From assembly GCF_003334305.1 (NCBI RefSeq), contig NZ_QOWS01000001.1: a stretch of DNA of 64,000 nt. One strand, given 5' to 3'. The position numbers and the translations under genes were made by a program. Of the stretch, positions 9,194 to 58,417 are shown piece by piece. Below the pieces are notes generated by a model. It had not been told where the DNA came from. It saw only the letters and a program-made list of their open reading frames with translations, and made no database searches. The first letter of the stretch is position 1, and each line of letters begins with the position of its first letter. Source of the DNA: Escherichia coli. GTDB lineage: Bacteria; Pseudomonadota; Gammaproteobacteria; Enterobacterales; Enterobacteriaceae.

Positions 9194-10303
9194 ATGAACG
9201 AACAATCCCAGGCCAAATCACCAGAAGCCTTGCGCGCAATGGTCGCCGGGACACTGGCCAATTTTCAGCACCCAACCCTGAAGCATAACCTCACCACGCT
9301 GAAAGCGTTGCACCATGTCGCCTGGATGGACGACACGTTGCATGTGGAACTGGTTATGCCATTCGTCTGGCATAGCGCGTTTGAAGAGTTAAAAGAGCAA
9401 TGTAGCGCCGAACTGCTGCGTATCACCGGGGCGAAAGCTATCGACTGGAAACTGTCGCACAATATCGCCACCTTAAAACGCGTGAAGAATCAGCCGGGTA
9501 TTAATGGTGTGAAGAACATCATTGCGGTCAGCTCCGGTAAAGGCGGCGTGGGTAAATCCTCCACGGCGGTAAACCTGGCGCTGGCACTGGCGGCGGAAGG
9601 GGCGAAAGTCGGCATTCTGGACGCCGATATCTACGGCCCATCAATTCCCACCATGCTGGGCGCAGAAAATCAGCGTCCAACGTCGCCGGACGGTACCCAC
9701 ATGGCACCGATTATGTCTCATGGCCTGGCAACCAATTCAATTGGTTATCTGGTCACTGACGACAATGCGATGGTGTGGCGTGGACCGATGGCGAGCAAGG
9801 CGTTAATGCAGATGTTGCAGGAAACCTTGTGGCCGGATCTCGACTATCTGGTGCTTGATATGCCGCCAGGCACCGGTGACATTCAATTGACGCTGGCGCA
9901 AAACATTCCAGTAACTGGTGCAGTCGTGGTCACCACCCCGCAGGACATCGCGTTGATCGATGCGAAAAAAGGCATTGTGATGTTCGAGAAAGTCGAGGTT
10001 CCGGTGCTTGGTATTGTCGAGAACATGAGTGTGCATATTTGCAGTAACTGTGGTCACCATGAACCGATTTTCGGTACCGGTGGTGCTGAGAAACTGGCTG
10101 AAAAATACCACACACAGCTGCTGGGGCAGATGCCGTTACACATCTCCTTACGTGAGGATCTCGATAAAGGCACGCCAACGGTTATCAGCCGTCCGGAGAG
10201 CGAATTTACCGCTATCTACCGCCAGTTGGCTGACCGCGTTGCAGCTCAGCTCTACTGGCAGGGTGAAGTCATTCCAGGCGAGATTTCCTTCCGCGCGGTC
10301 TAA
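9194..10303 (+). CDS. mrp: Fe-S cluster carrier ATPase Mrp/ApbC
   Basis: P-loop GKGGVGKSS; start MNEQSQAKSPE preceded by AAAGGAG; divergent from metG. Confidence 0.9.
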   Translation: MNEQSQAKSPEALRAMVAGTLANFQHPTLKHNLTTLKALHHVAWMDDTLHVELVMPFVWHSAFEELKEQCSAELLRITGAKAIDWKLSHNIATLKRVKNQPGINGVKNIIAVSSGKGGVGKSSTAVNLALALAAEGAKVGILDADIYGPSIPTMLGAENQRPTSPDGTHMAPIMSHGLATNSIGYLVTDDNAMVWRGPMASKALMQMLQETLWPDLDYLVLDMPPGTGDIQLTLAQNIPVTGAVVVTTPQDIALIDAKKGIVMFEKVEVPVLGIVENMSVHICSNCGHHEPIFGTGGAEKLAEKYHTQLLGQMPLHISLREDLDKGTPTVISRPESEFTAIYRQLADRVAAQLYWQGEVIPGEISFRAV

Positions 10304-32489: not shown

Positions 32490-33389
32490 TTAACGCAATA
32501 ATGGACAATCTGGTGGTAATCGACAACGCAACGCCGCCGGAAGTATTTCAATATGAAAGTTTTGTCCGCTCAACGGTTCGCCATCAAGATTAAAAGTGAT
32601 TTCGTGTGGGGCTTGTATATCAAACCACGACGAAGCGCCTTCGATAATATTCGGGTTATCTTCGTCAGATTTTAAGGTTGATACGAGAGCCGGAAGAATT
32701 TCATCGCCGGTAAAAATGCGCAGTTGCAGCAAGCCATCGTTAATTAACGCGTTCGGACACAATTGCTGACCGCCACCGGCCTGACGCCCGTTACCAATAC
32801 CAATGACCAGGGCGTCACCTTGCCAGTGAAAGTTTTCACCGCGGATTTCACAACGGTCCGGTTGCAGAGTATCCATGCGCATTAAGCCATGAATGATGTA
32901 AGAGACGCCACCCAGCGCGGCTTTTAATTTTTCCGGCGTTTCTGTGGTAATACGCGTCCCAAATCCGCCTGTCGCCATATTAATAAAACAGGTTTGTTTG
33001 TTGACCTGCGCCATATCTATCGCAATGGCGTTACCGGCAATTGCCAGTTTCAGCGCCTTATCCAGTGCCTCAGGAATCCCTACACTGGTGGCAAAATCAT
33101 TGGCGGTTCCTAATGGCAAAATTCCCAGCGCGGGTATGTCATCCCCCTCACACTGAATCAACGCCGTAGAAACTTCATTAATGGTGCCATCGCCACCACC
33201 GGCAATCACCGTTGCGACGCCCAACTTCCGGGCCTCCTCTACATATCGTGCGGCATCGCCTTTCTCCCAGGTGACCCGCACATGGATCGTCATTCCTTCC
33301 TCACGCAACAGCATAATTGCTTCGCGCAAGGGTAGATTGTCAGTACTTTTGCCATTAAGAATCAGTAAGCTGGCGGGAAATTCTGCCAT
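32490..33389 (-). CDS. yegS: Lipid kinase (DAGK-catalytic-domain family)
   Basis: 299 aa; GGDGT motif ([13 protein letters not shown]). Confidence 0.9.
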
Positions 33390-33803
33390 GATCGTATGTG
33401 CCTTTATGATTGGTCTGTAGATAGTGTAGAGCAGAAAACAAAAGGTGGAGTCAGAACAGGATGAAAGTCGGAGGATAAAAAGTCAGTTCAAGTATGGAGG
33501 ATTCAGTGGTTACCACCAGGAGCTTGCAATGGGGACAGCGAATACTAACGGCTGCCACCGATAAATTTCAAAAAAGAGCATATGCCTAATATTCAACCAA
33601 ACAGTGGCATCTTAAATATACTATTCCAAATATATTAAAGCCCCCATGGAGTTACCCTGAAGGGCCTCAATGTCCGTAATTCCTACTTATGTAGGAAATG
33701 TTGTACAGAACATTTATTATAATCCTATTCAATTATAATAATCATGCCATTATTATATTTAAACACTAGAGAGTGTCGTTGGTATTTAATGGGGGAAGGT
33801 GAG

Positions 33804-34121
33804 ATGAAAAAGATAGCTGCTATATCATTAATTAGTATTTTTATTATGTCTGGTTGTGCTGTGCATAATGATGAGACAAGTATCGGTAAATTTGGTCTTG
33901 CATATAAAAGTAATATTCAGCGTAAACTCGATAACCAATACTACACCGAAGCCGAAGCTTCTTTAGCCAGGGGCAGAATATCTGGTGCAGAAAATATAGT
34001 AAAAAATGATGCAGCCCATTTCTGTGTTACTCAGGGCAAAAAAATGCAGATAGTTGACCTGAAGACAGAAGGTGCAGGATTACATGGCGTCGCTCGTCTG
34101 ACATTCAAATGTGGAGAGTGA
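33804..34121 (+). CDS. yegR: Small lipoprotein
   Basis: 105 aa from MKKIAAISLISIFIMSGCAVHN (lipobox SGC) after GGAAGGTGAG; last host gene before attL. Confidence 0.75.
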   Translation: MKKIAAISLISIFIMSGCAVHNDETSIGKFGLAYKSNIQRKLDNQYYTEAEASLARGRISGAENIVKNDAAHFCVTQGKKMQIVDLKTEGAGLHGVARLTFKCGE

Positions 34122-34279
34122 GAATATTTTTTGGTAAGCGTCAAACATGCGCGTTCTGGTTGTGCTTAGCCGGAACCTGTGCGAGCACGATGCCGTTACG
34201 TGAAAGGCATCGTGCTATGAAGGGAGATTCTATCGATGTGGTCAATGGAAGACGGTGACCAGGGATAGGGCTTATGCAT

Positions 34280-34306
34280 AAAAAATAAGCCCGTGTAAGG
34301 GAGATT
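34280..34306. mobile_element. P2-type att core (attL) at the prophage left junction
   Basis: AAAAAATAAGCCCGTGTAAGGGAGATT matches my recollection of the 27-bp P2 attachment core; lies about 80 bp outside the int stop. Confidence 0.75.
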
Positions 34307-34385
34307 TAGGGTGTCACCAGTAGGGGCTTTCAACGGTACAATGCGGGTTTGAGCGGCATAAATTACCACTGAAAGCCCTTAAACG

Positions 34386-35399
34386 TTACTCTACTGTGGA
34401 CACTGTGTGGACACTCTCGGCCTCAGTACCACCTCTTAGCGGATTAAGAGAAATGGCGTCCTGAAGGTACTCTGGCGCAAAATGAGCGTAAACCATAGTT
34501 TGCTCAATCCGCGTGTGACCTAGTATCCGTTGTAGCGTGATAATACTTCCTCCATTAATCATGAAATGAGTGGCAAAGCTGTGCCTTAGTGCATGTGTGG
34601 CTTGCCCCATTGGCAAATCCGGTTTTATTGCTTTCATTGTTCGTCTGAAGCGAGGGTAATCAGCATCAGGGAATAAAAAACCTCGTTTGTTATCCGCGAT
34701 CATTTTGGCAACAGCCTCTGAGATCGGGACGGTGCGTGGTTTGTTTGTTTTCGTTTTAACAAACGTGACGCGGTTATGGATGATATTTTCTGCTTTCAAA
34801 CGAGCTGCTTCTCCCCAACGTGCTCCTGTACTCAGGCAAAGAATCGCAATCTTTTTATTGTCGCCGTCAAGTGCTGCAAGCAGTAAGGCAATTTCTTCCT
34901 GTGTTAGATAGCCTGTTTCTGGTTTTTCCTCCTTAAGCCTTTTTGTCCCTCTGATAGGGTGCTCACCAAAGAATAACTCCGCTTCAATCAGGGCTGTAAA
35001 CATGCCGCTAATACATGTTAAATCACGATTGATACTCGAAGGTTTAATACCCTGACTTCTTCGGGTGGCGCAGTACTGGCTGATAAGCGATTTCGTAATT
35101 TGAAATGCGCATGGGTCATTCGTTATTTTTGTGAAGATTTCAATTTTTCCAAGATTAGATTTCCCATGCTCTTCGTGTTTACCCTTTAAATCCCACCAGA
35201 TCTGTGTCAGCTCCGACAGACGTCGCTTGTCTGTTGGTTTTGATAGCCATTCTTTATTGTGGTGGTTGTACAACGTGTATTTCTCGAAAGCGACAGCTTC
35301 GCTTTTCTTATCAAACTTCCTACGGATGCGTTTTCCATTACGTCCAGTAGGGCGGATGTCCACTTCATATCGACCATCATCGAGTTTTTTGATTGCCAT
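34386..35399 (-). CDS. int: P2-like prophage integrase (tyrosine recombinase)
   Basis: 337 aa; C-terminal HALRHSFATHF...LGHTRIEQTMVYAHF catalytic box. Confidence 0.92.
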   Translation of the reverse strand: MAIKKLDDGRYEVDIRPTGRNGKRIRRKFDKKSEAVAFEKYTLYNHHNKEWLSKPTDKRRLSELTQIWWDLKGKHEEHGKSNLGKIEIFTKITNDPCAFQITKSLISQYCATRRSQGIKPSSINRDLTCISGMFTALIEAELFFGEHPIRGTKRLKEEKPETGYLTQEEIALLLAALDGDNKKIAILCLSTGARWGEAARLKAENIIHNRVTFVKTKTNKPRTVPISEAVAKMIADNKRGFLFPDADYPRFRRTMKAIKPDLPMGQATHALRHSFATHFMINGGSIITLQRILGHTRIEQTMVYAHFAPEYLQDAISLNPLRGGTEAESVHTVSTVE

Positions 35400-37696: not shown

Positions 37697-37968
37697 GTAT
37701 TCGTATTGAAATTGGCGAACGTTATGTCGTTACCAGTGACAGCTTTCAGTTTATTCTCCACGAGAAAAAGAGAGCGGAAAGCGGTAAAAACGCCGGTCAG
37801 GAATGGCTGGCGGTGGTTGGTTATTACCCGAAATTAAGCCAGCTCGTTTCAGGCCTGATGCATCACGATATTCTGACCGGAAGCGCAAAGTCTTTTGCTG
37901 ATTTAAACGTGCAGGTTGAGCAACTCAGCAAGCGTTGTTCAGAGGCTTTTGGCTCATATGGCCGTTAA
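37693..37968 (+). CDS. Small early protein (P2 orf83-like)
   Basis: 91-aa ORF overlapping the start of A. Confidence 0.5.
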   Translation: MSIRIEIGERYVVTSDSFQFILHEKKRAESGKNAGQEWLAVVGYYPKLSQLVSGLMHHDILTGSAKSFADLNVQVEQLSKRCSEAFGSYGR

Positions 37969-40243
37969 AGCCTCCGGGCGTTTTGTCCCTCCGTCAGCAT
38001 TTGCCGCAGGCACCGGTAAGATGTTTACCGGTGCTTATGCATGGAACGCGCCACGCGAGGCCGTCGGGCGCGAAAGACCCCTTACACGTGACGAGATGCG
38101 TCAGATGCAAGGTGTTTTATCCACGATTAACCGCCTGCCTTACTTTTTGCGCTCGCTGTTTACTTCACGCTATGACTACATCCGGCGCAATAAAAGCCCG
38201 GTGCACGGGTTTTATTTCCTCACATCCACTTTTCAGCGTCGTTTATGGCCGCGCATTGAGCGTGTGAATCAGCGCCATGAAATGAACACCGACGCGTCGT
38301 TGCTGTTTCTGGCAGAGCGTGACCACTATGCGCGCCTGCCGGGAATGAATGACAAGGAGCTGAAAAAGTTTGCCGCCCGTATCTCATCGCAGCTTTTCAT
38401 GATGTATGAGGAACTCAGCGATGCCTGGGTGGATGCACATGGCGAAAAAGAATCGCTGTTTACGGATGAGGCGCAGGCTCACCTCTATGGTCATGTTGCT
38501 GGCGCTGCACGTGCTTTCAATATTTCCCCGCTTTACTGGAAAAAATACCGTAAAGGACAGATGACCACGAGGCAGGCATATTCTGCCATTGCCCGTCTGT
38601 TTAACGATGAGTGGTGGACTCATCAGCTCAAAGGCCAGCGTATGCGCTGGCATGAGGCGTTACTGATTGCTGTCGGGGAGGTGAATAAAGACCGTTCTCC
38701 TTATGCCAGTAAACATGCCATTCGTGATGTGCGTGCACGCCGCCAGGCAAATCTGGAATTTCTTAAATCGTGTGACCTTGAAAACAGGGAAACCGGCGAG
38801 CGCATCGACCTTATCAGTAAGGTGATGGGCAGTATTTCTAATCCTGAAATTCGCCGGATGGAGCTGATGAACACCATTGCCGGTATTGAGCGTTACGCCG
38901 CCGCAGAGGGTGATGTGGGGATGTTTATCACGCTTACCGCGCCTTCAAAGTATCACCCGACACGTCAGGTCGGAAAAGGCGAAAGTAAAACCGTCCAGCT
39001 AAATCACGGCTGGAACGATGAGGCATTTAATCCAAAGGATGCGCAGCGTTATCTCTGCCATATCTGGAGCCTGATGCGCACGGCATTCAAAGATAATGAT
39101 TTACAGGTCTACGGTTTGCGTGTCGTCGAGCCACACCACGACGGAACGCCGCACTGGCATATGATGCTTTTTTGTAATCCACGCCAGCGTAACCAGATTA
39201 TCGAAATCATGCGTCGCTATGCGCTCAAAGAGGATGGCGACGAAAGAGGAGCCGCGCGAAACCGTTTTCAGGCAAAACACCTTAACCAGGGCGGTGCTGC
39301 GGGGTATATCGCGAAATACATCTCAAAAAACATCGATGGCTATGCACTGGATGGTCAGCTCGATAACGATACCGGCAGACCGCTGAAAGACACTGCTGCG
39401 GCTGTTACCGCATGGGCGTCAACGTGGCGCATCCCACAATTTAAAACGGTTGGTCTGCCGACAATGGGGGCTTACCGTGAACTACGCAAATTGCCTCGCG
39501 GCGTCAGCATTGCTGATGAGTTTGACGAGCGCGTCGAGGCTGCACGCGCCGCCGCAGACAGTGGTGATTTTGCGTTGTATATCAGCGCGCAGGGTGGGGC
39601 AAATGTCCCGCGCGATTGTCAGACTGTCAGGGTCGCCCGTAGTCCGTCGGATGAAGTTAACGAGTACGAGGAAGAAGTCGAGAGAGTGGTCGGCATTTAC
39701 GCGCCGCATCTCGGCGCGCGTCATATTCATATCACCAGAACGACGGACTGGCGCATTGTGCCGAAAGTTCCGGTCGTTGAGCCTCTGACTTTAAAAAGCG
39801 GCATCGCCGCGCCTCGGAGTCCTGTCAATAACTGTGGAAAGCTCACCGGTGGTGATACTTCGTTACCGGCTCCCACACCTTCTGAACACGCCGCAGCAGT
39901 GCTTAATCTGGTTGATGACGGTGTTATCGAATGGAATGACCCGGAGGTCGTGAGGGCGCTCAGGGGCGCATTAAAATACGGGCTGAGAACACCAAATCGT
40001 CAGCAGAGAAACGGAAGCCCGTTAAAACCACATGAAATTGCACCATCGGCCAGACTGACCCGGTCGGAAAGAATGCAAATTACCCGTATCCGCGTTGACC
40101 TTGCTCAGAACGGTATCAGGCCGCAGCGATGGGAGCTTGAGGCGCTGGCGCGTGGCGCGACCGTAAATTATGACGGGAAAAAATTCACGTATCCGGTCGC
40201 TGATGAGTGGCCGGGATTCTCAACAGTAATGGCGCGGATATAA
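37958..40243 (+). CDS. A: P2-like replication initiation endonuclease A (rolling-circle)
   Basis: About 761 aa from MAVKASGRF; HxH-type motif TPHWHMMLF and tyrosine pair GYIAKYISK. Confidence 0.9.
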   Translation: MAVKASGRFVPPSAFAAGTGKMFTGAYAWNAPREAVGRERPLTRDEMRQMQGVLSTINRLPYFLRSLFTSRYDYIRRNKSPVHGFYFLTSTFQRRLWPRIERVNQRHEMNTDASLLFLAERDHYARLPGMNDKELKKFAARISSQLFMMYEELSDAWVDAHGEKESLFTDEAQAHLYGHVAGAARAFNISPLYWKKYRKGQMTTRQAYSAIARLFNDEWWTHQLKGQRMRWHEALLIAVGEVNKDRSPYASKHAIRDVRARRQANLEFLKSCDLENRETGERIDLISKVMGSISNPEIRRMELMNTIAGIERYAAAEGDVGMFITLTAPSKYHPTRQVGKGESKTVQLNHGWNDEAFNPKDAQRYLCHIWSLMRTAFKDNDLQVYGLRVVEPHHDGTPHWHMMLFCNPRQRNQIIEIMRRYALKEDGDERGAARNRFQAKHLNQGGAAGYIAKYISKNIDGYALDGQLDNDTGRPLKDTAAAVTAWASTWRIPQFKTVGLPTMGAYRELRKLPRGVSIADEFDERVEAARAAADSGDFALYISAQGGANVPRDCQTVRVARSPSDEVNEYEEEVERVVGIYAPHLGARHIHITRTTDWRIVPKVPVVEPLTLKSGIAAPRSPVNNCGKLTGGDTSLPAPTPSEHAAAVLNLVDDGVIEWNDPEVVRALRGALKYGLRTPNRQQRNGSPLKPHEIAPSARLTRSERMQITRIRVDLAQNGIRPQRWELEALARGATVNYDGKKFTYPVADEWPGFSTVMARI

Positions 40244-40599
40244 TGACAAAGATTCACAAAGTAAAGCTGCACGCAAGATATTTCAACCTTGTGCTGGAGG
40301 AAAAAGAAACGCACAGAATTTAGGGGGATAGCCGTTATCATGTGTATGAAGCACTTGAAATGTATCTGCATCACTTGGGAGTGTGTCAACGGGGAATTTC
40401 CATCTATGTGATTTTTTGAGAGCAATGCAGTGAAGATAAAGATACTTATTATAAATCAATGTGATAGATGGTGCCTCGCAAACGTAAATGATAGTTTTGA
40501 AGCTTCAGGGCTGATGTCGTTCATAAGACTATGTTTACGCTATCATTTATGATAAAAATAATTAATTTTTATCATAAAGATTCAACAGAGGATATGTTG

Positions 40600-42105
40600 A
40601 TGAATCAACTAAAATCAATGAATATCAATAAGTTACTTTTGGATGTTGATAACCCTCGTTTCCCGACGTCAGCAGAAAATCAGCGTGATGCTATTGCCAA
40701 GATGCTTGACTTGCAGTACGACCGCATTTATCGCTTGGCTAAAGATATTGCTTCGAAAGGTTTAGATCCGTCTGAAAACATATTAGTTTATCCTAGTGAA
40801 GAGGAATCTGGCTTTTTCGTCGTTGCTGAAGGTAATCGTCGAGTTACAGCCCTTAAACTTTTACACTCTCCTAGACTTGCACCAACAGAAAAAGCACGGA
40901 AAGCTTTTGAAAAACTTAAGATTACTCAGCTTAAAGATATTAATGTTATAGATAACTGCGTTCTTTTTGACGATGATGAATATGAGCATTGGGTCAATTT
41001 AAAGCATACTGGTCAAAATGCTGGAGTTGGAAGAGTTGAATGGACTGCAACAGAAAAAGCACGACATCTGGCTAGGATGGGTAAGCAGTCATTTGGTAAT
41101 CAAATACTTACATTTATAGAGTTCAATACTGATTTATATAAAGAGATAATTGCTAAAAAAAGACTTTTAAAAATCACAAACATCACGCGTCTTTTTGGTG
41201 ATTTAAAGGTGAGGGATTATTTTAATTTAAAAAGCATTAATGGAGTTCTATACTCATATCAGCCTTATGAACGTTTTTGTGCACAATTAAAAAATATTTT
41301 AGATGTAATGATTGAAGAGGATGATAAAGGTAAGGCTTGTTTTACTGTTAATAGGATTCGTAGCCAAGATGACAGGGTTACATTTATTATTGAACAAAAA
41401 ATAAAACCTTCAGAATCTCTTTTAGATAAGCCGTGGAGTTTATTAGAGCCTAAATCTTTTCTTACAGAGAAAAAACATGATTCTATTGACAAAAATGATG
41501 CATCTGTGAGTGTAAAGAAAGCAGGTCTTTCAGAAGGTGATGCCTTAAAGAATACAGGTGTGGATAAACAGGAAGATGATTATTCTAGACATGTAGGCAC
41601 AGAAGAGAGTAAATCTAAAGTTTCGGGTACGGAACAGAATAAAAACAAGGGAAAAACTCCTCCTAAAGTAGATCGTAATGTGTTGGTGCCATCTTATGTG
41701 AAATTTAATTTTAGAGGGCATAAGAAATGCTCTAGAATATTTAATGAGCTTAAGTCGCATCTGACATTTGATAACACCCCTAATGCTATCTCAATATTGT
41801 TGAGAATATTTATAGATCTCTCTGTAAGCACTTTTGTTGAAGAAAACAAGTTACAATTTAAGGAACCACATAGAACTCCAGGGCTTCATGATAAGGTTAA
41901 AATGTGTGCTAATTTCCTTCGGGAAAATAAAAAGATGACGGGGAGTCAATGTACGGCTGTAATAACTTTCTCGAGCCAAATAACTAAACATGATGGTTCA
42001 TTGCAGCAGTATGTACATAACCCACACTTAATTCCCTCAAAAGAGGCTGTCAACACTGAGTGGGATAACTTTGAGTTGTTATTAAGCCTTATTTGGAGTG
42101 AGTGA
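40600..42105 (+). CDS. ParB/Srx-fold domain protein with disordered Lys/Ser/Glu-rich linker and uncharacterised C-terminal domain (cargo gene 1)
   Basis: ORF 40531-42105 (524 aa); likely start at 40600 (GAGGA seven nt upstream). N-terminus has DVDNPRF and VVAEGNRRVTALKLL, matching ParB box motifs; conspicuously AT-rich against the flanking phage genes. Confidence 0.7.
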   Translation: MNQLKSMNINKLLLDVDNPRFPTSAENQRDAIAKMLDLQYDRIYRLAKDIASKGLDPSENILVYPSEEESGFFVVAEGNRRVTALKLLHSPRLAPTEKARKAFEKLKITQLKDINVIDNCVLFDDDEYEHWVNLKHTGQNAGVGRVEWTATEKARHLARMGKQSFGNQILTFIEFNTDLYKEIIAKKRLLKITNITRLFGDLKVRDYFNLKSINGVLYSYQPYERFCAQLKNILDVMIEEDDKGKACFTVNRIRSQDDRVTFIIEQKIKPSESLLDKPWSLLEPKSFLTEKKHDSIDKNDASVSVKKAGLSEGDALKNTGVDKQEDDYSRHVGTEESKSKVSGTEQNKNKGKTPPKVDRNVLVPSYVKFNFRGHKKCSRIFNELKSHLTFDNTPNAISILLRIFIDLSVSTFVEENKLQFKEPHRTPGLHDKVKMCANFLRENKKMTGSQCTAVITFSSQITKHDGSLQQYVHNPHLIPSKEAVNTEWDNFELLLSLIWSE

Positions 42106-42174: not shown

Positions 42175-43059
42175 ATGAAATTTTATACTCCATTAAGATA
42201 CCCCGGCGGGAAAGGTAAGTTATCTTACTTTTTAAAAGATGTTATTGAAAAAAACTCGTTGAATGATGGAGCATATGCAGAACCTTACGCTGGTGGTGCA
42301 GGGGTGGCTTTAGAATTATTATTGGAAGAGTATGTCCGTAAAATCTATATAAATGATGCAGATTTTGCTGTTTATTCTTTTTGGTCATCTGTTGTTAGTG
42401 ATACTGATGAGCTTTGCCGACTTATTAGCCGAGCAAAGATAGATATGGATGAATGGTCTTTTCATCGCTATGTTATTTCGAATCCTTCTGAGTTTACTAA
42501 GCTTGAGGTTGGCTTTGCTGCGTTTTTCTTAAATAGAACAAATCGTTCAGGTATTCTCAAGGCGGGGGTTATAGGCGGGAAATCACAAAATGGAAAATGG
42601 AAAATGGATGTTCGCTTTAACAGGGCGGATTTAATTTCAAGAATTGAGAAGATAGCAAATTATAATCAAAGAATAGTAGTAACTAATCTGGATGCTTTGG
42701 ATTTTCTTGATGTCTTGAATTTTATGGATAATATGGGAAAGGTGGATAAAAATAAAATTCTTTTGTATTTGGATCCTCCTTACTATATTAAAGGGCAAGG
42801 GCTTTACAGGAATTTTTATGAGCATGATGATCATGTATTGGTTATGAAGAAACTCACAGAAATTAATTTCCCAAATTGGCTTGTTTCTTATGATAACGCT
42901 AAGGAAATTAAAGATATTTATAATGGATTTCCGCAAGTTGAGTATTCATTGCAATATACAGCGCATCTCAAAAAATCTGGAGAGGAAGTGATGATTTTTT
43001 CTCCTGAAATAATTATTCCTAATACCCTGAAAGGGGGCTCAATGCCAACTTGCGCCTGA
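42175..43059 (+). CDS. Dam-family (D12 class) N6-adenine DNA methyltransferase (cargo gene 2)
   Basis: 294 aa; motifs collinear with E. coli Dam: YPGGKGK (Dam WAGGK), EPYAGGAGV (Dam EPFVGAGSV), FFLNRTNRSG (Dam LYLNRYGYNG) and DPPYY (residues about 200-204); AT-rich. Confidence 0.85.
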   Translation: MKFYTPLRYPGGKGKLSYFLKDVIEKNSLNDGAYAEPYAGGAGVALELLLEEYVRKIYINDADFAVYSFWSSVVSDTDELCRLISRAKIDMDEWSFHRYVISNPSEFTKLEVGFAAFFLNRTNRSGILKAGVIGGKSQNGKWKMDVRFNRADLISRIEKIANYNQRIVVTNLDALDFLDVLNFMDNMGKVDKNKILLYLDPPYYIKGQGLYRNFYEHDDHVLVMKKLTEINFPNWLVSYDNAKEIKDIYNGFPQVEYSLQYTAHLKKSGEEVMIFSPEIIIPNTLKGGSMPTCA

Positions 43060-51699: not shown

Positions 51700-52129
51700 T
51701 GCCGTCACGGTGCTGAAAACTAACCCCGATATGCTGCGGATATTCGTGGATAACGGGAGTATTGCCTCCACGCTGGCGGCGTCGTTGTCATTCGAAAAGC
51801 GTTACACGCTCAATGTCATTGTGACCGACTTTACCGGTGATTTTGACCTGCTCATCGTGCCGGTACTGGCGTGGCTGCGGGAAAATCAGCCCGACATCAT
51901 GACCACCGACGAAGGCCAGAAAAAGGGCTTCACGTTTTATGCAGACATCAACAATGACAGCAGCTTTGATGTCAGCATCAGCCTGATGCTGACCGAGCGC
52001 ACGCTGGTCAGTGAGGTCGACGGCGCACTGCATGTGAAGAATATCCCGGAACCCCCGCCGCCGAAGCCGGTCACCCGCCCGATGGAGCTTTATATCAATG
52101 GCGAACTGGTGAGTAAGTGGGATGAATGA
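51662..52129 (+). CDS. R: Tail completion protein R
   Basis: 155 aa; position. Confidence 0.85.
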   Translation: MLKPDSLRRALTDAVTVLKTNPDMLRIFVDNGSIASTLAASLSFEKRYTLNVIVTDFTGDFDLLIVPVLAWLRENQPDIMTTDEGQKKGFTFYADINNDSSFDVSISLMLTERTLVSEVDGALHVKNIPEPPPPKPVTRPMELYINGELVSKWDE

Positions 52130-52574
52130 GTTTAAGCGTTTTGAAGACCGGCTGACCGGGCTGATTGAATCGCTGTCACCGTCAGGGCGTCGGCGACTGA
52201 GTGCCGAACTGGCGAAGCGCCTGCGGCAGAGTCAGCAGCGTCGGGTGATGGCACAGAAAGCCCCGGACGGCACACCCTACGCGCCACGCCAGCAGCAGAG
52301 CGCCAGAAAAAAGACCGGTCGTGTTAAGCGAAAAATGTTTGCGAAACTTATCACCAGTCGTTTTTTGCATATCCGCGCCAGCCCGGAGCAGGCATCAATG
52401 GAATTTTACGGCGGGAAGTCACCGAAAATCGCCAGTGTGCATCAGTTCGGTCTGTCGGAAGAAAACCGGAAAGACGGTAAGAAAATTGATTATCCGGCGC
52501 GTCCTCTGCTCGGCTTTACCGGTGAGGATGTGCAGATGATTGAAGAGATTATCCTGGCTCACCTTGAGCGTTAG
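52122..52574 (+). CDS. S: Tail completion protein S
   Basis: 150 aa; position. Confidence 0.85.
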   Translation: MNEFKRFEDRLTGLIESLSPSGRRRLSAELAKRLRQSQQRRVMAQKAPDGTPYAPRQQQSARKKTGRVKRKMFAKLITSRFLHIRASPEQASMEFYGGKSPKIASVHQFGLSEENRKDGKKIDYPARPLLGFTGEDVQMIEEIILAHLER

Positions 52575-52645
52575 TTTTATCCAGGCAGAGGCTGATGCGC
52601 AATTAAACATTGAGCGGCCATGCTGGTCGCTCAATGTTTAGAGGT

Positions 52646-53431
52646 TTATGAGTGATTTTTATTTGATGCTTTGTATTCTAAAACCTTCTTATTGGCGTAA
52701 AAGAATTTTGTATATGACAGGAATATAACCAGACCTGAAGTGAAATAGACGAGGGATAGTATTAATAATGCTTTTTTGTGACTGTTATTATCTTTAATCT
52801 CCTGGCTTAACCATTCGGAGTCCTCCTCGTTTAGCTGTAAGAGCTTATTGCAGGCGATCTCAGGAAGTGTGTCTTTTATAAATACGTTTTGCAGTTTCTT
52901 GCAATCGGCAAGGCTATAAGTTTTATTAAATTCAACTGCTTTATTTTTGAAGGATAAAAGAACTTTGTCACTATAAACATAGTACATCATGTTTTTATAT
53001 GGTATGCCTATGGCATCCCTTACTATAACGGATTGTTTGTTGTGTATGTAACATGCGAGGAGAATGTAAAAAATACTGGTCAGAATTACAATTATTGTTT
53101 TAATTATGTGTGGTGGTTTTGTTATGTCACCCCAGATGCGAGTAAGGAAAAAATACGATGTTTTTAGTTTTCCATCAATCAGTCCCTGCTGTATCATTCT
53201 CACATTTTCAATGCCTGATACATTGATTCCGTTAATTATTTTAAATAGTTGAATGTCGCGCCACTCGCGGTCAAGTCTTTTTAATTTTTTGTCTGAATAT
53301 CCAAAATTGAAATAATGTGCAATAAGCCTCATAAGGTTACTTTTACCAAAGCTAAAAAATGCTAATACTGCAAAGCTACAAAGGAAAAAAACGATTAGCC
53401 CCCACACATTAGTCACATTATAGCTGACCAT
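52646..53431 (-). CDS. AT-rich predicted membrane protein of unknown function, antisense to the late operons (cargo)
   Basis: 261-aa ORF between S and V; about three hydrophobic helices (IVFFLCSFAVLAFFSF, IIKTIIVILTSIFYILLACYI, ALLILSLVYFTSGLVIFLSY); Lys/Asn/Ile-rich. Confidence 0.65.
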   Translation of the reverse strand: MVSYNVTNVWGLIVFFLCSFAVLAFFSFGKSNLMRLIAHYFNFGYSDKKLKRLDREWRDIQLFKIINGINVSGIENVRMIQQGLIDGKLKTSYFFLTRIWGDITKPPHIIKTIIVILTSIFYILLACYIHNKQSVIVRDAIGIPYKNMMYYVYSDKVLLSFKNKAVEFNKTYSLADCKKLQNVFIKDTLPEIACNKLLQLNEEDSEWLSQEIKDNNSHKKALLILSLVYFTSGLVIFLSYTKFFYANKKVLEYKASNKNHS

Positions 53432-53514
53432 TACGCTCTCCTTGAATGTTGTCTGGTAGTTCTACAAATGAATCCAGATAGCATAACTTTTATATATTGT
53501 GCAATCTCACATGC

Positions 53515-54150
53515 ATGAACACTCTCGCAAATATTCAGGAACTCGCGCGCGCACTGCGCAACATGATTCGCACCGGCATTATCGTCGAAACCGACCTTAA
53601 CGCCGGTCGCTGCCGCGTGCAGACCGGCGGCATGTGCACCGACTGGCTTCAGTGGCTGACCCATCGCGCCGGTCGTTCGCGCACATGGTGGGCACCTTCC
53701 GTGGGAGAACAGGTGCTGATTCTGTCCGTGGGCGGTGAACTCGACACGGCATTCGTTCTGCCGGGGATTTATTCCGGCGATAACCCCGCGCCGTCTGCGT
53801 CGGCGGATGCCCTGCATATCCGTTTCCCTGACGGGGCGGTGATTGAGTATGAACCCGAAACCAGTGCACTTACGGTAAGCGGAATTAAAACGGCCAGCGT
53901 GACGGCTTCTGATTCTGTTACTGCCACGGTGCCGGTGGTCATGGTGAAAGCATCAACCCGCGTCACCCTGGACACACCGGAGGTGGTCTGCACCAACAGG
54001 CTGATTACCGGCACGCTGGAAGTGCAGAAGGGCGGGACGATGCGCGGCAACATTGAACACACCGGCGGTGAACTCTCATCAAACGGTAAGGTACTGCATA
54101 CCCATAAACACCCCGGCGACAGTGGCGGCACAACAGGGGGACCTCTATGA
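53515..54150 (+). CDS. V: Baseplate spike protein
   Basis: 211 aa from MNTLANIQELARAL. Confidence 0.88.
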   Translation: MNTLANIQELARALRNMIRTGIIVETDLNAGRCRVQTGGMCTDWLQWLTHRAGRSRTWWAPSVGEQVLILSVGGELDTAFVLPGIYSGDNPAPSASADALHIRFPDGAVIEYEPETSALTVSGIKTASVTASDSVTATVPVVMVKASTRVTLDTPEVVCTNRLITGTLEVQKGGTMRGNIEHTGGELSSNGKVLHTHKHPGDSGGTTGGPL

Positions 54151-56011: not shown

Positions 56012-57687
56012 CAGTGAAATACTACGCCATTCTGACTAATCAGGGCGCAGCACGACTGGCTAACGCGACGATGCTCGGCAGTAAGCTGAATCTGACGCAA
56101 ATGGCCGTTGGTGATGCGAATGGTGTATTACCGACACCAGACCCGGCACAGACAAAACTGATTAACCAGAAACGCATTGCACCGCTGAATCTTCTGAGTG
56201 TTGACCCTAACAATCAGAGCCAGATTATTGCGGAGCAAATTATCCCTGAAAACGAGGGAGGATTCTGGATCCGTGAGATTGGGCTTTATGATGATGAAGG
56301 CGTACTCATTGCGGTGGCGAACTGCCCGGAAACGTACAAACCGCAGTTGCAGGAAGGCAGTGGTCGTACCCAGACTATCCGCATGATTCTGGTTGTCTCG
56401 AATACCGAAGCCATCACGCTGAAAATCGATCCGTCGGTGGTACTGGCGACCCGTAAATATGTGGATGACAAAATCTCAGAACACGAACAGTCACGACGAC
56501 ACCCGGATGCATCGCTGACCGCAAAAGGTTTTACTCAGTTAAGCAGCGCAACCAACAGCACGTCTGAAACACTGGCCGCAACGCCGAGAGCGGTAAAGAT
56601 CGCGTATGACCTTGCTAACGGGAAATATACTGCACAGGACGCGACCACAGCGCGAAAAGGTCTTGTCCAGCTCAGTAGCGCCACCAACAGCGATTCTGAA
56701 ACGCTTGCGGCAACGCCAAAGGCGGTAAAGACAGCATATGACCTTGCTAACGGGAAATATACCGCACAGGACGCGACCACAGCGCGAAAAGGCCTTGTCC
56801 AGCTCAGCAGCGCCACTAACAGCACGTCAGAAACGCAGGCTGCCACACCAAAAGCCGTGAAGGCTGTATATGACCTTGCCAATGGAAAACAACCTGCCGA
56901 CGCCACACTGACCGCACTGGCAGGCCTTGCCACTGCGGCAGACAAACTACCGTATTTTACGGGGAATGATACAGCCAGCCTGACAACCCTGACTAATGTT
57001 GGACGGGATATTCTGGCTAAAACAAGCAAACAGGAGGTTATTCATTATCTTGGTTTGGGAGCTACAAACGGATACGTGGGACGCTTGGTGAATACCCGGG
57101 TTTTCACGTCATCAGGTACGTACACCCCGACACCAGGAACAAAACGGATCAGGGTCACAATAACGGGCGGCGGTGGCGGAGGGGGTGGCTGCCAGGCTAT
57201 ATCCAGTAACGAAACGTTTTTCGGTGCTGGCGGTGGGGCCGGAGGGACAGTAATCACCATACTGACCCCGACACAGAATAGTTATCCTGTCACTATCGGC
57301 GCAGGTGGGGCCGGCGGCGTTGGTGCGACGAACGGCCTCAAGGGCGGTGATAGCTCGTTCGGATCGGTAATAGCCCCTGGTGGTGAAGGCGGCGGAAAAG
57401 TAGGAGTCACAAACACAAACGGCGGTAACGGAGGCGTACCGAATATTGGCGATATCCGCATCACTGGTGGAGATGGAGGCGACGGTCAGTCCGGGAATAT
57501 CAGCGTCAGCGGTGAAGGCGGTGCATCGTACTGGGGAGGCGGTGGACGTGCAGGCGCTGGCGGTGGCGTTAGAGGCAGGGCATTTGGTTCAGGCGGAGGT
57601 GGTGCATACGATGCAGGTTATAGCGGAACCAGTATGACGGGCGGGAAAGGTGCTGATGGGGTTTGTATTATCGAGGAGTTTGCATAA
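56008..57687 (+). CDS. H: Tail fibre protein with internal tandem repeats and Gly-rich C-terminal domain
   Basis: 559 aa; conserved N-terminus MTVKYYAILTNQGAARLANA; three ~44-aa repeats (QLSSATNS.SETLAATP.AVK.AYDLANGKYTAQDATTARKG); C-terminal third dominated by GGxGG runs. Confidence 0.88.
   Translation: MTVKYYAILTNQGAARLANATMLGSKLNLTQMAVGDANGVLPTPDPAQTKLINQKRIAPLNLLSVDPNNQSQIIAEQIIPENEGGFWIREIGLYDDEGVLIAVANCPETYKPQLQEGSGRTQTIRMILVVSNTEAITLKIDPSVVLATRKYVDDKISEHEQSRRHPDASLTAKGFTQLSSATNSTSETLAATPRAVKIAYDLANGKYTAQDATTARKGLVQLSSATNSDSETLAATPKAVKTAYDLANGKYTAQDATTARKGLVQLSSATNSTSETQAATPKAVKAVYDLANGKQPADATLTALAGLATAADKLPYFTGNDTASLTTLTNVGRDILAKTSKQEVIHYLGLGATNGYVGRLVNTRVFTSSGTYTPTPGTKRIRVTITGGGGGGGGCQAISSNETFFGAGGGAGGTVITILTPTQNSYPVTIGAGGAGGVGATNGLKGGDSSFGSVIAPGGEGGGKVGVTNTNGGNGGVPNIGDIRITGGDGGDGQSGNISVSGEGGASYWGGGGRAGAGGGVRGRAFGSGGGGAYDAGYSGTSMTGGKGADGVCIIEEFA
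56509..56904 (+). repeat. Three tandem ~132-bp coding repeats inside H
   Basis: Near-identical units beginning GCGACCACAGCGCGAAAAGG at 56641 and 56773, with a more diverged first copy from about 56509. Confidence 0.8.
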
Positions 57688-58097
57688 TGAATGCGTCATA
57701 TGCAGTTATTGAAAATGGGATGGTTGTGAATGTCATTGTCTGGGATGGCGAGGATGAATTCACTGTGCCGGATAATCAGCAGCTCATTAATATTTCTGAT
57801 ATCAGTGAGCAGCCCGGAATCGGCTGGGTGTATTCAGACGGGGGATTTACTGCGCCACCCACTCCGGAACGTTCTCATGATGAACTGGTAGCTGACGCTG
57901 AACAGAAAAAACAGTCGCTGTTAGACGCAGCAATGGTCAATATCAGCGTGATTCAGTTAAAGCTGCAGGCCGGGCGCAAACTGACGCAAGAGGAAACTAC
58001 CCGACTTAACGTTGTGCTGGATTATATCGACGCTGTGACGGCAACAGATACCAGCACCGCACCGGATGTCATCTGGCCTGAACTGCCGGAGGCGTAG
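57687..58097 (+). CDS. G: Tail fibre assembly chaperone
   Basis: 136 aa from MNASYAVIENG; start overlaps the H stop. Confidence 0.8.
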   Translation: MNASYAVIENGMVVNVIVWDGEDEFTVPDNQQLINISDISEQPGIGWVYSDGGFTAPPTPERSHDELVADAEQKKQSLLDAAMVNISVIQLKLQAGRKLTQEETTRLNVVLDYIDAVTATDTSTAPDVIWPELPEA

Positions 58098-58197
58098 ACC
58101 ATTCAATATCTGACGTACCGGAAGTATCGGACCGCTCCGGTGCGTACAGGTAATCCAGCCACAAATTATATTGCGCCAGTACCTCAGACCTGCCGGG

Positions 58198-58398
58198 CTA
58201 TTGCTTAGTGTTCATGTGTTTATTGGCCTGATTAATCAGTAGCTGTCTTTCTGGTCGTGTGGATCCTGCAAATCCTGAATGGTCGGAAATACCGCAGGCG
58301 GGCTGATTGCCCGCCTTTTTTATCTGTTGTTTCATCCACTGACCAGCCAGGTCAAATAGCGTCTCATGCTCTGCACAACAGAAAATAGTTGCACCCAT
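58198..58398 (-). CDS. Small antisense ORF at the G/FI junction (P2 Z/fun position); coding status uncertain
   Basis: 66-aa ORF in the gap between G and FI; contains the plus-strand terminator hairpin. Confidence 0.3.
   Translation of the reverse strand: MGATIFCCAEHETLFDLAGQWMKQQIKKAGNQPACGISDHSGFAGSTRPERQLLINQANKHMNTKQ
58297..58321 (+). terminator. Rho-independent terminator after the V-G tail operon
   Basis: GGCGGGC-TGATT-GCCCGCC hairpin followed by TTTTTT. Confidence 0.7.
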
Positions 58399-58417
58399 TA
58401 ACCACGGAGTTAAACGG

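What the first reader, a model, noticed from the sequence alone, without database searches (positions are those of the whole stretch)
52575..53514. Reverse-oriented AT-rich membrane-protein gene inserted between tail genes S and V
Seen in sequence: a 261-aa ORF on the minus strand sits in the gap between S (ends 52574) and V (starts 53515), antisense to the surrounding late operons, with about three predicted transmembrane helices and very AT-rich composition. Established knowledge: the S/V junction is a variable moron site in P2-like phages. Inference: a single membrane protein expressed from the lysogen is typical of superinfection-exclusion or abortive-infection factors.
Basis: partly seen in the sequence, partly recalled or inferred. 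Interest (0 to 1): 0.68.

Follow-up and report, generated by a model that had tools for sequence, protein, structure and literature searches.

The report
Phage P2 orf30 membrane-protein gene
This is orf30 of phage P2, a non-essential AT-rich gene annotated decades ago for a three-helix inner-membrane protein of still unknown function; divergent relatives hold the same slot between tail genes S and V in many P2-like prophages.

Summary
A 261-codon ORF (52646-53431, minus strand, 33.6% GC against about 56% in the flanks) fills the gap between tail genes S and V of a P2-type prophage and encodes a protein with three transmembrane helices.

It is not new. The S-orf30-V stretch is 99.2% identical to phage P2 itself, where the gene is annotated "Orf30; nonessential". 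The papers found list its function as unknown. The S/V junction is one of the three classic P2 moron sites.

New here:
- The family (phrog_2407, weakly linked to DUF6216) is position-locked. Seven of ten relatives examined, 16-31% identical, lie antisense between S and V of other P2-like prophages, where V measured in three of them is 74-83% identical.
- All examined members are AT-rich. All 20 with three detected TM helices have a net-positive first loop; all but one have two cysteines in the second.
- E. coli alleles evolve with dN/dS of 0.4-0.7, against 0.03-0.19 for neighbouring tail genes.
- No known defence, lysis or structural family matches, and no solved fold.

A prophage-expressed, envelope-level phage-exclusion role remains the best guess (about 0.35-0.4). 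It is untested, and no convincing promoter was found.

The parts
52122..52574 (+). Gene S (tail completion), last gene of the upstream late (O) operon; left boundary of the cassette
   Evidence: ORF; P2 annotation gpS; homology with Wphi stops just after the S stop codon
52575..53514 (.). 940-bp AT-rich S-V cassette: terminator hairpin, orf30, and the P_V control region. It replaces the 66-bp spacer of 'empty' phages such as Wphi
   Evidence: In E. coli genomes S+V spans either 1155 bp (empty) or 2029 bp (with cassette)
52604..52640 (.). 13+3-bp hairpin between the convergent S and orf30 genes. P2 annotates it as the putative rho-independent terminator of the O operon; it probably also ends the orf30 transcript
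   Evidence: P2 feature 9397-9433 mapped at offset 43207. RNA fold -22.4 kcal/mol, z = -5.3. 99% conserved among alleles. No clear T-run on either strand, read directly from the sequence
52646..53431 (-). orf30 coding sequence, 261 aa plus stop
   Evidence: 99.4% nt and 98.5% aa identity to P2 orf30. phrog_2407 full length, E = 3.6e-148
53348..53407 (-). TM helix 1 (aa 9-28); most variable segment, pN/pS 1.27
   Evidence: helix 6-40 in the AF2 model
53108..53347 (-). Predicted cytoplasmic helical domain (aa 29-108), net positive (14 K+R, 7 D+E). Best-conserved part of the family: Q61, G68, N70-V71, position 76 (D in 93% of members, N here), G87
53042..53107 (-). TM helix 2 (aa 109-130)
52775..53041 (-). 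Predicted periplasmic domain (aa 131-219): four-stranded beta-sheet plus helices, with the conserved cysteine pair C177/C194
   Evidence: (two Cys in loop 2 in 19 of the 20 members with three detected TM segments)
52712..52774 (-). TM helix 3 (aa 220-240), followed by a basic cytoplasmic tail (aa 242-261) with conserved N247 and K254
53438..53443 (-). Shine-Dalgarno AAGGAG, 6 nt upstream of the orf30 ATG
   Evidence: Sequence; GGAG invariant, the first A is G in three of six alleles
53446..53473 (+). Ogr activator-binding site of the divergent late promoter P_V, only about 15 bp from the orf30 start codon. Any orf30 promoter must overlap the P_V core promoter
   Evidence: P2 feature 10239-10266 mapped. 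97% conserved among alleles. A related CACAAC(A) motif lies close to the start codon of distant relatives
53515..54150 (+). Gene V (baseplate spike), first gene of the next late operon; right boundary of the cassette
   Evidence: homology with Wphi resumes at the V ATG

Best explanation
The feature is orf30 of bacteriophage P2, carried here by a P2-type prophage in an E. coli chromosome. This part is shown. It encodes a 261-aa inner-membrane protein with this predicted layout: short N-terminus outside, TM1, an 80-aa basic helical cytoplasmic domain, TM2, a 90-aa periplasmic beta-sheet domain with a conserved cysteine pair that could form a disulfide, TM3, and a basic cytoplasmic tail. The gene sits in its own antisense cassette between two late operons, bounded by a hairpin and by the P_V control region. 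It is dispensable for the phage. The rest is inferred. Most likely it is an accessory gene transcribed while the late promoters are silent, that is, in the lysogen. Its product would act at the cell envelope to change what happens to incoming phages, by blocking genome entry (superinfection exclusion) or by an envelope-triggered abortive response. This would resemble other single membrane proteins encoded by morons inside tail-gene clusters. Rapid divergence at a fixed genomic position would then reflect an arms race with the phages it acts on.
For: Identity: 99.2% nt identity to P2 over S-orf30-V, and the P2 annotation reads 'Orf30; nonessential'. The gene is real and under selection: the ORF is intact at synonymous divergence up to 0.25, and dN/dS is 0.39-0.71 in the informative pairs, with the soluble domains at 0.34-0.38. 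Moron anatomy: GC 0.34 against 0.56; a hairpin of -22.4 kcal/mol; presence/absence polymorphism, with orf30 in 464 of the 1578 complete E. coli genomes that carry S/V; viable phages without it, Wphi and PsP3. Membrane topology is constant across the family: the first loop is net positive in all 20 members with three detected TM segments, and the second loop has two Cys in 19 of them. The AF2 model reaches pLDDT 82.5 and pTM 0.71. Fast evolution at a fixed site: relatives 16-31% identical lie antisense between S and V; V, compared in three of those loci, is 74-83% identical. Neighbouring tail genes show dN/dS of 0.03-0.19 at similar dS, measured on one allele pair. An intact orf30 next to a truncated V in a decayed prophage (L007), and an intact relative in the decayed prophage of L022, hint at value to the host. 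The other two P2 moron sites carry phage-exclusion genes (old/tin and Z/fun; Z/Fun 'phage exclusion'). In this very prophage the old/tin site carries PD-Lambda-5.
Against: Nothing here shows expression in the lysogen. No convincing sigma-70 promoter lies upstream in this or in related loci; matches are at most 8-9 of 12 positions. AT-rich DNA in E. coli is commonly silenced by H-NS (established knowledge). No PADLOC defence model matches this protein or ten relatives. No Pfam, NCBIfam or PDB relative has a known function. From my own knowledge, not tested here: the classic exclusion phenotypes of P2 lysogens were mapped to old, tin and fun, not to orf30, and P2 vir mutants plate on P2 lysogens, so strong self-exclusion is unlikely. 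Strict linkage to the S/V junction could instead point to a role in the phage's own cycle.
Confidence: 0.4

Rival explanations
1. Orf30 serves the phage's own lytic cycle. It would be a non-essential membrane helper made during productive growth, for example modulating lysis timing, anchoring tail or baseplate assembly near the membrane, or stopping progeny from wasting themselves on the lysing cell.
For: The family is tied to one position between tail-completion gene S and spike gene V across phages whose Orf30 proteins are only 16-31% identical. The start codon lies about 15 bp from the Ogr-binding site of P_V. The flanking regulatory DNA is more conserved than the ORF, 97-99% against 86-94%.
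Against: It is antisense to both late operons and converges on S, so late transcription should oppose it. P2 annotates it as non-essential. It is absent from about 70% of E. coli P2-type S/V loci and from viable phages Wphi and PsP3. It shows no similarity to holins, antiholins, spanins or virion proteins. Intact copies persist in decayed prophages.
Confidence: 0.2
2. Orf30 is a lysogenic-conversion factor for host fitness unrelated to phages. It would be an envelope protein that changes stress tolerance, colonisation or serum resistance, as lambda Bor/Lom or the P2-like-prophage gene neaT do.
For: Moron anatomy and the presence/absence polymorphism. Another P2-like prophage moron, neaT, gives niche-specific fitness (PMC3573123). 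Relatives occur outside P2 prophages, next to an integrase remnant and a GNAT gene, or next to a DsbA-like gene. The wider DUF6216-like fold family is spread over many Proteobacteria.
Against: The fast divergence, especially of the TM helices, fits an arms race better than a housekeeping envelope role. There is no enzyme-like domain or known motif. The orf30-carrying E. coli genomes listed come from many sources: humans, poultry, dog, pig, cattle, wild bird and water.
Confidence: 0.2
3. Orf30 is a membrane-damaging abortive-infection effector or toxin-like protein. It would be kept silent or inactive until infection, then depolarise the membrane.
For: It is a single multi-TM protein in an AT-rich, possibly H-NS-silenced cassette with only weak promoter signals. 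A conserved cytoplasmic domain could act as a sensor.
Against: No partner antitoxin or sensor gene is conserved next to it. No PADLOC model matches. Three TM helices plus a folded periplasmic domain is not the usual small pore-former design.
Confidence: 0.12
4. Orf30 is a decaying or functionless passenger ORF that persists only because its cassette also carries the O-operon terminator and the P_V promoter.
For: The flanking regulatory sequences are more conserved than the ORF. dN/dS is much higher than in neighbouring genes. No function has been reported in the papers found.
Against: All six alleles compared keep an intact 261-codon frame, and dN/dS is below 1, at 0.34-0.38 in the soluble domains. 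Relatives at 16-31% identity keep length, topology, the Cys pair and motif residues. The structure model built on the 28-sequence family alignment is confident.
Confidence: 0.05

Closest known systems
Bacteriophage P2 orf30 (AAD03281.1 / NP_046770.1; PHROG phrog_2407)
   Same: It is the same gene. Nucleotide identity is 99.2% over S-orf30-V and amino-acid identity is 98.5%. Position, orientation, terminator and P_V control elements are all the same.
   Different: Four amino-acid substitutions. Here it is in an integrated prophage that carries PD-Lambda-5 in place of P2's old/tin genes.
DUF6216 (Pfam PF19723), uncharacterised bacterial membrane proteins
   Same: Similar length (about 230-310 aa) and fold. 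Three of 28 family members hit the Pfam model at E <= 0.001. DUF6216 proteins appear among the Foldseek AFDB50 matches at E of about 2e-3.
   Different: The window protein itself gives no Pfam hit even at E <= 10. DUF6216 has no known function, so the link explains nothing.
HK97 gp15-type morons: single inner-membrane superinfection-exclusion proteins encoded inside tail-gene clusters (recalled from Cumby et al. 2012, J Bacteriol; not checked here)
   Same: A small accessory membrane-protein gene with its own signals, embedded among tail genes of a temperate phage and dispensable for growth.
   Different: No sequence or fold similarity was established. Expression in the lysogen and a block of DNA entry are unknown for Orf30. 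Orf30 is larger, has three TM helices and two folded soluble domains, and is antisense.
The other P2 moron cargoes: old, tin and Z/fun
   Same: Described in the literature as horizontally acquired, non-essential genes at one of the three variable sites of P2-like phages.
   Different: Those have known exclusion phenotypes, and their sites are highly diverse defence hotspots. The S/V site in E. coli is nearly binary, empty or orf30. In more distant P2-like prophages it is usually occupied by divergent members of this one family.
Claudin/TARP-like fold: TM helix bundle topped by an extracytoplasmic beta-sheet
   Different: Three TM helices rather than four, an extra cytoplasmic domain, and scores in the range of generic helical-bundle matches. 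This is not evidence of relationship.

Membership tests
P2 Orf30 / phrog_2407 | Full-length match to the family profile | tested here: met
   phrog_2407, E = 3.6e-148, residues 1-261 of 261; 98.5% aa identity to P2 Orf30
P2 Orf30 / phrog_2407 | Located between gpS and gpV of a P2-like phage, antisense to the late operons | tested here: met
   The same holds for relatives in L010, L012, L017-L020, L021 (S side only; short contig), L022 (V side only), L029-L031
Moron (accessory cassette of a temperate phage) | Base composition unlike the surrounding phage genome | tested here: met
   GC 0.336 against 0.56; 0.30-0.38 against 0.42-0.61 in ten related loci
Moron (accessory cassette of a temperate phage) | Present in some and absent from other closely related phages; not needed for growth | tested here: met
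   464 of 1578 S/V-bearing E. coli genomes; Wphi and PsP3 lack it; P2 note 'nonessential'
Moron (accessory cassette of a temperate phage) | Own promoter and terminator, allowing expression from the repressed prophage | tested here: inconclusive
   Strong hairpin downstream, but no T-run. Only weak sigma-70 matches upstream, and the space is shared with P_V. Expression cannot be measured with these tools
Known anti-phage defence systems (PADLOC-DB v2) | Match to a defence-protein model | tested here: not met
   No family for the window protein at E <= 1 or for ten relatives at E <= 0.01
Superinfection-exclusion membrane proteins | Inner-membrane location | tested here: inconclusive
   Prediction only: three hydrophobic helices, positive-inside charge pattern, Cys pair in the predicted periplasmic loop
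Superinfection-exclusion membrane proteins | Made in the lysogen and blocks genome entry of an incoming phage | not testable with these tools
   Needs transcript mapping and infection assays; no paper reporting either was found
DUF6216 (PF19723) | Significant match to the Pfam model | tested here: not met
   No hit for the window protein. Only 3 of 28 family members reach E <= 0.001; the fold-level matches are weak
   No such hits in PHROGs, Pfam, NCBIfam, PDB sequences or folds

The most novel reading that the evidence does not exclude
The Orf30/phrog_2407 family would be an undescribed, position-locked class of envelope-level exclusion proteins of P2-like phages. A three-TM protein with a cytoplasmic sensor or anchor domain and a disulfide-bonded periplasmic domain would intercept the genome-delivery machinery of competing phages. 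Its promoter would overlap the divergent late promoter P_V, so that it is on in the lysogen and switched off when Ogr fires P_V. Its extreme divergence at a fixed locus would record an arms race.
Probability: 0.2. Interest if true: 0.6.

Novelty: already known. Interest (0 to 1): 0.3.

Why it matters
P2 is a model phage. Two of its three variable sites turned out to be rich reservoirs of anti-phage systems. The third site's resident, orf30, is still listed as of unknown function in the papers found, although it sits in about 9% of complete E. coli genomes. Divergent relatives hold the same slot in many other enterobacterial P2-like prophages. This makes it a well-defined target: one gene, simple genetics, a confident structure model, and clear predictions for topology, disulfide formation and expression timing. 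The finding itself, however, re-identifies an annotated gene, and no function was established here.

Tried and rejected
- Function by homology failed everywhere. PADLOC gave nothing. NCBIfam gave only a spurious 15-bit hit to a Rickettsia family whose cut-off is 120. Pfam gave nothing for the protein itself and only weak DUF6216 hits for relatives. PDB sequence searches gave nothing.
- The R18C ORF at the same site is on the other strand and is unrelated (hhalign probability 0.5%).
- Two 49-aa ORFs upstream of relative P0016 briefly suggested a peptide-plus-immunity pair. One reads as the C-terminal remnant of a tyrosine integrase, so I dropped the idea.
- Nine literature searches and targeted reads found no functional study of orf30. 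The Christie and Calendar P2 review is not held.
- The promoter scan found no convincing orf30 promoter.

Full report
**What is there**

An AAGGAG Shine-Dalgarno motif lies 6 nt upstream of the start codon. S ends at 52574. V begins at the ATG at 53515, following the P2 annotation.

The 940 bp between S and V are a sharp AT-rich island. The ORF is 33.6% GC; the late genes on either side are 56%. Hydropathy analysis gives three transmembrane segments: aa 9-28, 109-130 and 220-240.

**What it is**

The 1.3 kb around the ORF is 99.2% identical to bacteriophage P2 itself (AF063097 / NC_001895). There the ORF is annotated "Orf30; nonessential". The protein differs from P2 Orf30 at four residues.

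P2's annotated signals map onto the window:
- the putative terminator of the O operon, at 52604-52640; it folds at -22.4 kcal/mol with z = -5.3;
- the Ogr activator site of the late promoter P_V, at 53446-53473.

The window carries a P2-type prophage. An integrase-sized ORF lies at 34386-35399 and the A gene at 37916-40243. The gene order matches a prophage between yegR and yegQ in E. coli strain 789.

The literature held here lists Orf30 as "unknown" and names the orf30 locus as one of the three sites where P2-like phages carry horizontally acquired genes (PMC3091744; PMC6823313). Two hotspot studies address the old/tin and Z/fun sites and do not treat orf30. I found no paper that assigns it a function.

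**Is it an insertion?**

Within E. coli, yes, in the sense of a presence/absence polymorphism.
- S and V occur in 1578 of 5426 complete genomes.
- In a spread sample of 60 of these records the pair mostly spans either 1155 bp (a 66-bp spacer, as in phage Wphi) or 2029 bp (with the cassette).
- orf30 is present in 464 genomes, always chromosomal.
- Homology with Wphi stops just after the S stop codon and resumes at the V start codon.
- Other cargo exists at this site but is rarer: an unrelated plus-strand ORF in R18C and a 347-aa ORF in a Klebsiella phage. PsP3 is empty.

**A position-locked, fast-evolving family**

An exhaustive profile search of 1.84 billion representative proteins found 44 relatives. 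About 25 of them are full length (250-270 aa) and only 16-31% identical to Orf30. All ten that I scanned belong to phrog_2407.

I looked up the genomic context of ten relatives.
- Seven lie between an S homologue and/or a V homologue of a P2-like prophage, antisense to those genes, exactly like orf30. These are P0006, P0008, P0021, P0026, P0031, P0033 and P0038. P0033 is on a short contig that shows only the S side. P0021 is in a decayed prophage that shows only the V side.
- The other three lie at a contig end next to chromosomal genes, beside an integrase remnant and a GNAT gene, or beside a DsbA-like gene on short contigs.

In three of these loci I compared V with the window's V. It is 74-83% identical, while the corresponding Orf30 relatives are 21-31% identical. 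S, compared in one locus, is 49% identical.

Every family gene examined is AT-rich, at 30-38% GC. The flanks are 42% GC in the one short non-prophage contig (L026) and 48-61% in the other nine loci. The low GC is therefore a maintained property of the family and not just a mark of recent arrival.

Among E. coli alleles the coding sequence is more diverged than its own regulatory flanks.
- The ORF is 86-94% identical between the distinct allele types.
- The flanking regulatory DNA is 97-99% identical.
- Pairwise dN/dS is 0.39-0.71 in all pairs with enough substitutions to judge. Genes R, S, V and W give 0.03-0.19 at similar dS in the one allele pair compared.
- The soluble domains are the most constrained (0.34-0.38). 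TM1 is the least constrained (1.27) and exists as two recombining haplotypes.

**The protein**

Across the family the plan is constant. Of the 23 full-length relatives checked, 20 gave three or more hydrophobic segments. The first loop is net positive in all 20 and should be cytoplasmic. The second loop carries two cysteines in 19 of them.

Conserved residues cluster in the first loop: Q61, G68, N70, V71, position 76 (D in 93% of members, N in this protein) and G87. C177, C194 and I212 are conserved in the second loop, and N247 and K254 in the tail.

AlphaFold2 on the 28-sequence alignment gives a confident model, with pLDDT 82.5 and pTM 0.71. It shows a helical cytoplasmic domain, a four-stranded periplasmic sheet with flanking helices, and a long third TM helix.

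No solved structure resembles it convincingly. In AFDB50 it matches only uncharacterised or DUF6216 membrane proteins from Enterobacterales, Pasteurellaceae, pseudomonads and xanthomonads. Pfam's DUF6216 model is hit weakly by three of the 28 family members and not by this protein.

**How it most likely works**

- Shown: the identity of the gene, its reality as a coding sequence, the predicted topology, its dispensability, and the polymorphism.
- Inferred: that it is expressed from the prophage and acts at the envelope against incoming phages.

Several points favour the inference:
- the moron anatomy;
- the precedent of the other two P2 sites, and of PD-Lambda-5 in this prophage's old/tin site;
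- arms-race-like divergence;
- intact copies in decayed prophages.

One architectural point may bear on regulation. The orf30 start codon is only about 15 bp from the Ogr site of the divergent P_V promoter, so any orf30 promoter must overlap the P_V core promoter. A related CACAAC(A) element lies next to the start codon in distant relatives too. The two promoters could then be mutually exclusive, with orf30 on while P_V is silent.

Several points count against the inference:
- no good sigma-70 promoter was found;
- AT-rich DNA is usually silenced by H-NS (established knowledge);
- no defence model matches;
- from my own knowledge, no P2-lysogen exclusion phenotype has ever been mapped to orf30, and P2 vir mutants grow on P2 lysogens.

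I put the exclusion or defence reading at about 0.35-0.4. The rivals are a non-essential lytic-cycle role (0.2), a host-fitness conversion factor (0.2), a membrane abortive-infection effector (0.12) and a functionless passenger (0.05).

**Verdict**

The added value is threefold: the positional conservation and rapid evolution of its family, a confident topology and structure model, and the negative result against all known defence, lysis and structural families. Novelty is "already known". Interest is modest.

Noticed in passing
window 40531-42105 and 42175-43059 (+): The prophage's old/tin hotspot carries a PD-Lambda-5 two-gene defence system: A, E = 5.9e-168; B, a methyltransferase-like protein, E = 2.6e-121. 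It replaces P2's old and tin genes and is the only other AT-rich island in the prophage.
   Followed up: partly
window 57688-58417: The second classic moron site, Z/fun between the tail-fibre assembly gene and the sheath gene FI, is not AT-rich (49.5% GC). It holds only a tail-fibre-assembly-like ORF (57663-58097) and no obvious cargo.
   Followed up: partly
window 53431-53520 and loci L010, L012, L017, L021, L022, L029: A conserved CACAAC(A) element, which in P2 lies within the annotated Ogr-binding site of P_V, sits within about 15-40 bp of the start codon of orf30 and of its distant relatives. The orf30-family promoter region therefore seems always to overlap the divergent late promoter.
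   Followed up: partly
alignment A3 (window 52646-53431 against L005-L008): The first 60 or so codons of orf30 (TM1 and the juxtamembrane stretch) exist as two sharply different haplotypes that recombine with otherwise near-identical downstream sequence. The alleles are mosaic.
   Followed up: partly
L007 (E. coli KBN10P04869) and L022: In two decayed P2-like prophages, one with V truncated and one with J truncated and S replaced, the orf30-family gene is still intact. This may mean it is kept for the host's benefit.
   Followed up: no
L029/L030 1965-2899: In one P2-like prophage lineage, two more genes in the same orientation lie between V and the orf30-like gene: a 180-aa protein and a 131-133-aa DUF7480 protein. 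The S/V slot can therefore hold a small antisense operon.
   Followed up: no
L013-L016 and L026-L028: Some family members lie outside P2 prophages. One sits next to a remnant of a tyrosine integrase and a GNAT acetyltransferase. Another is divergent from a DsbA-like thioredoxin gene, which is notable given the conserved periplasmic cysteine pair.
   Followed up: no
window 32490-35399: The prophage integrase-sized ORF (34386-35399, minus) lies next to a 299-aa minus-strand ORF the same length as yegS. Gene order matches the P2-like prophage between yegR and yegQ in E. coli strain 789, so this is probably the same attachment region.
   Followed up: partly
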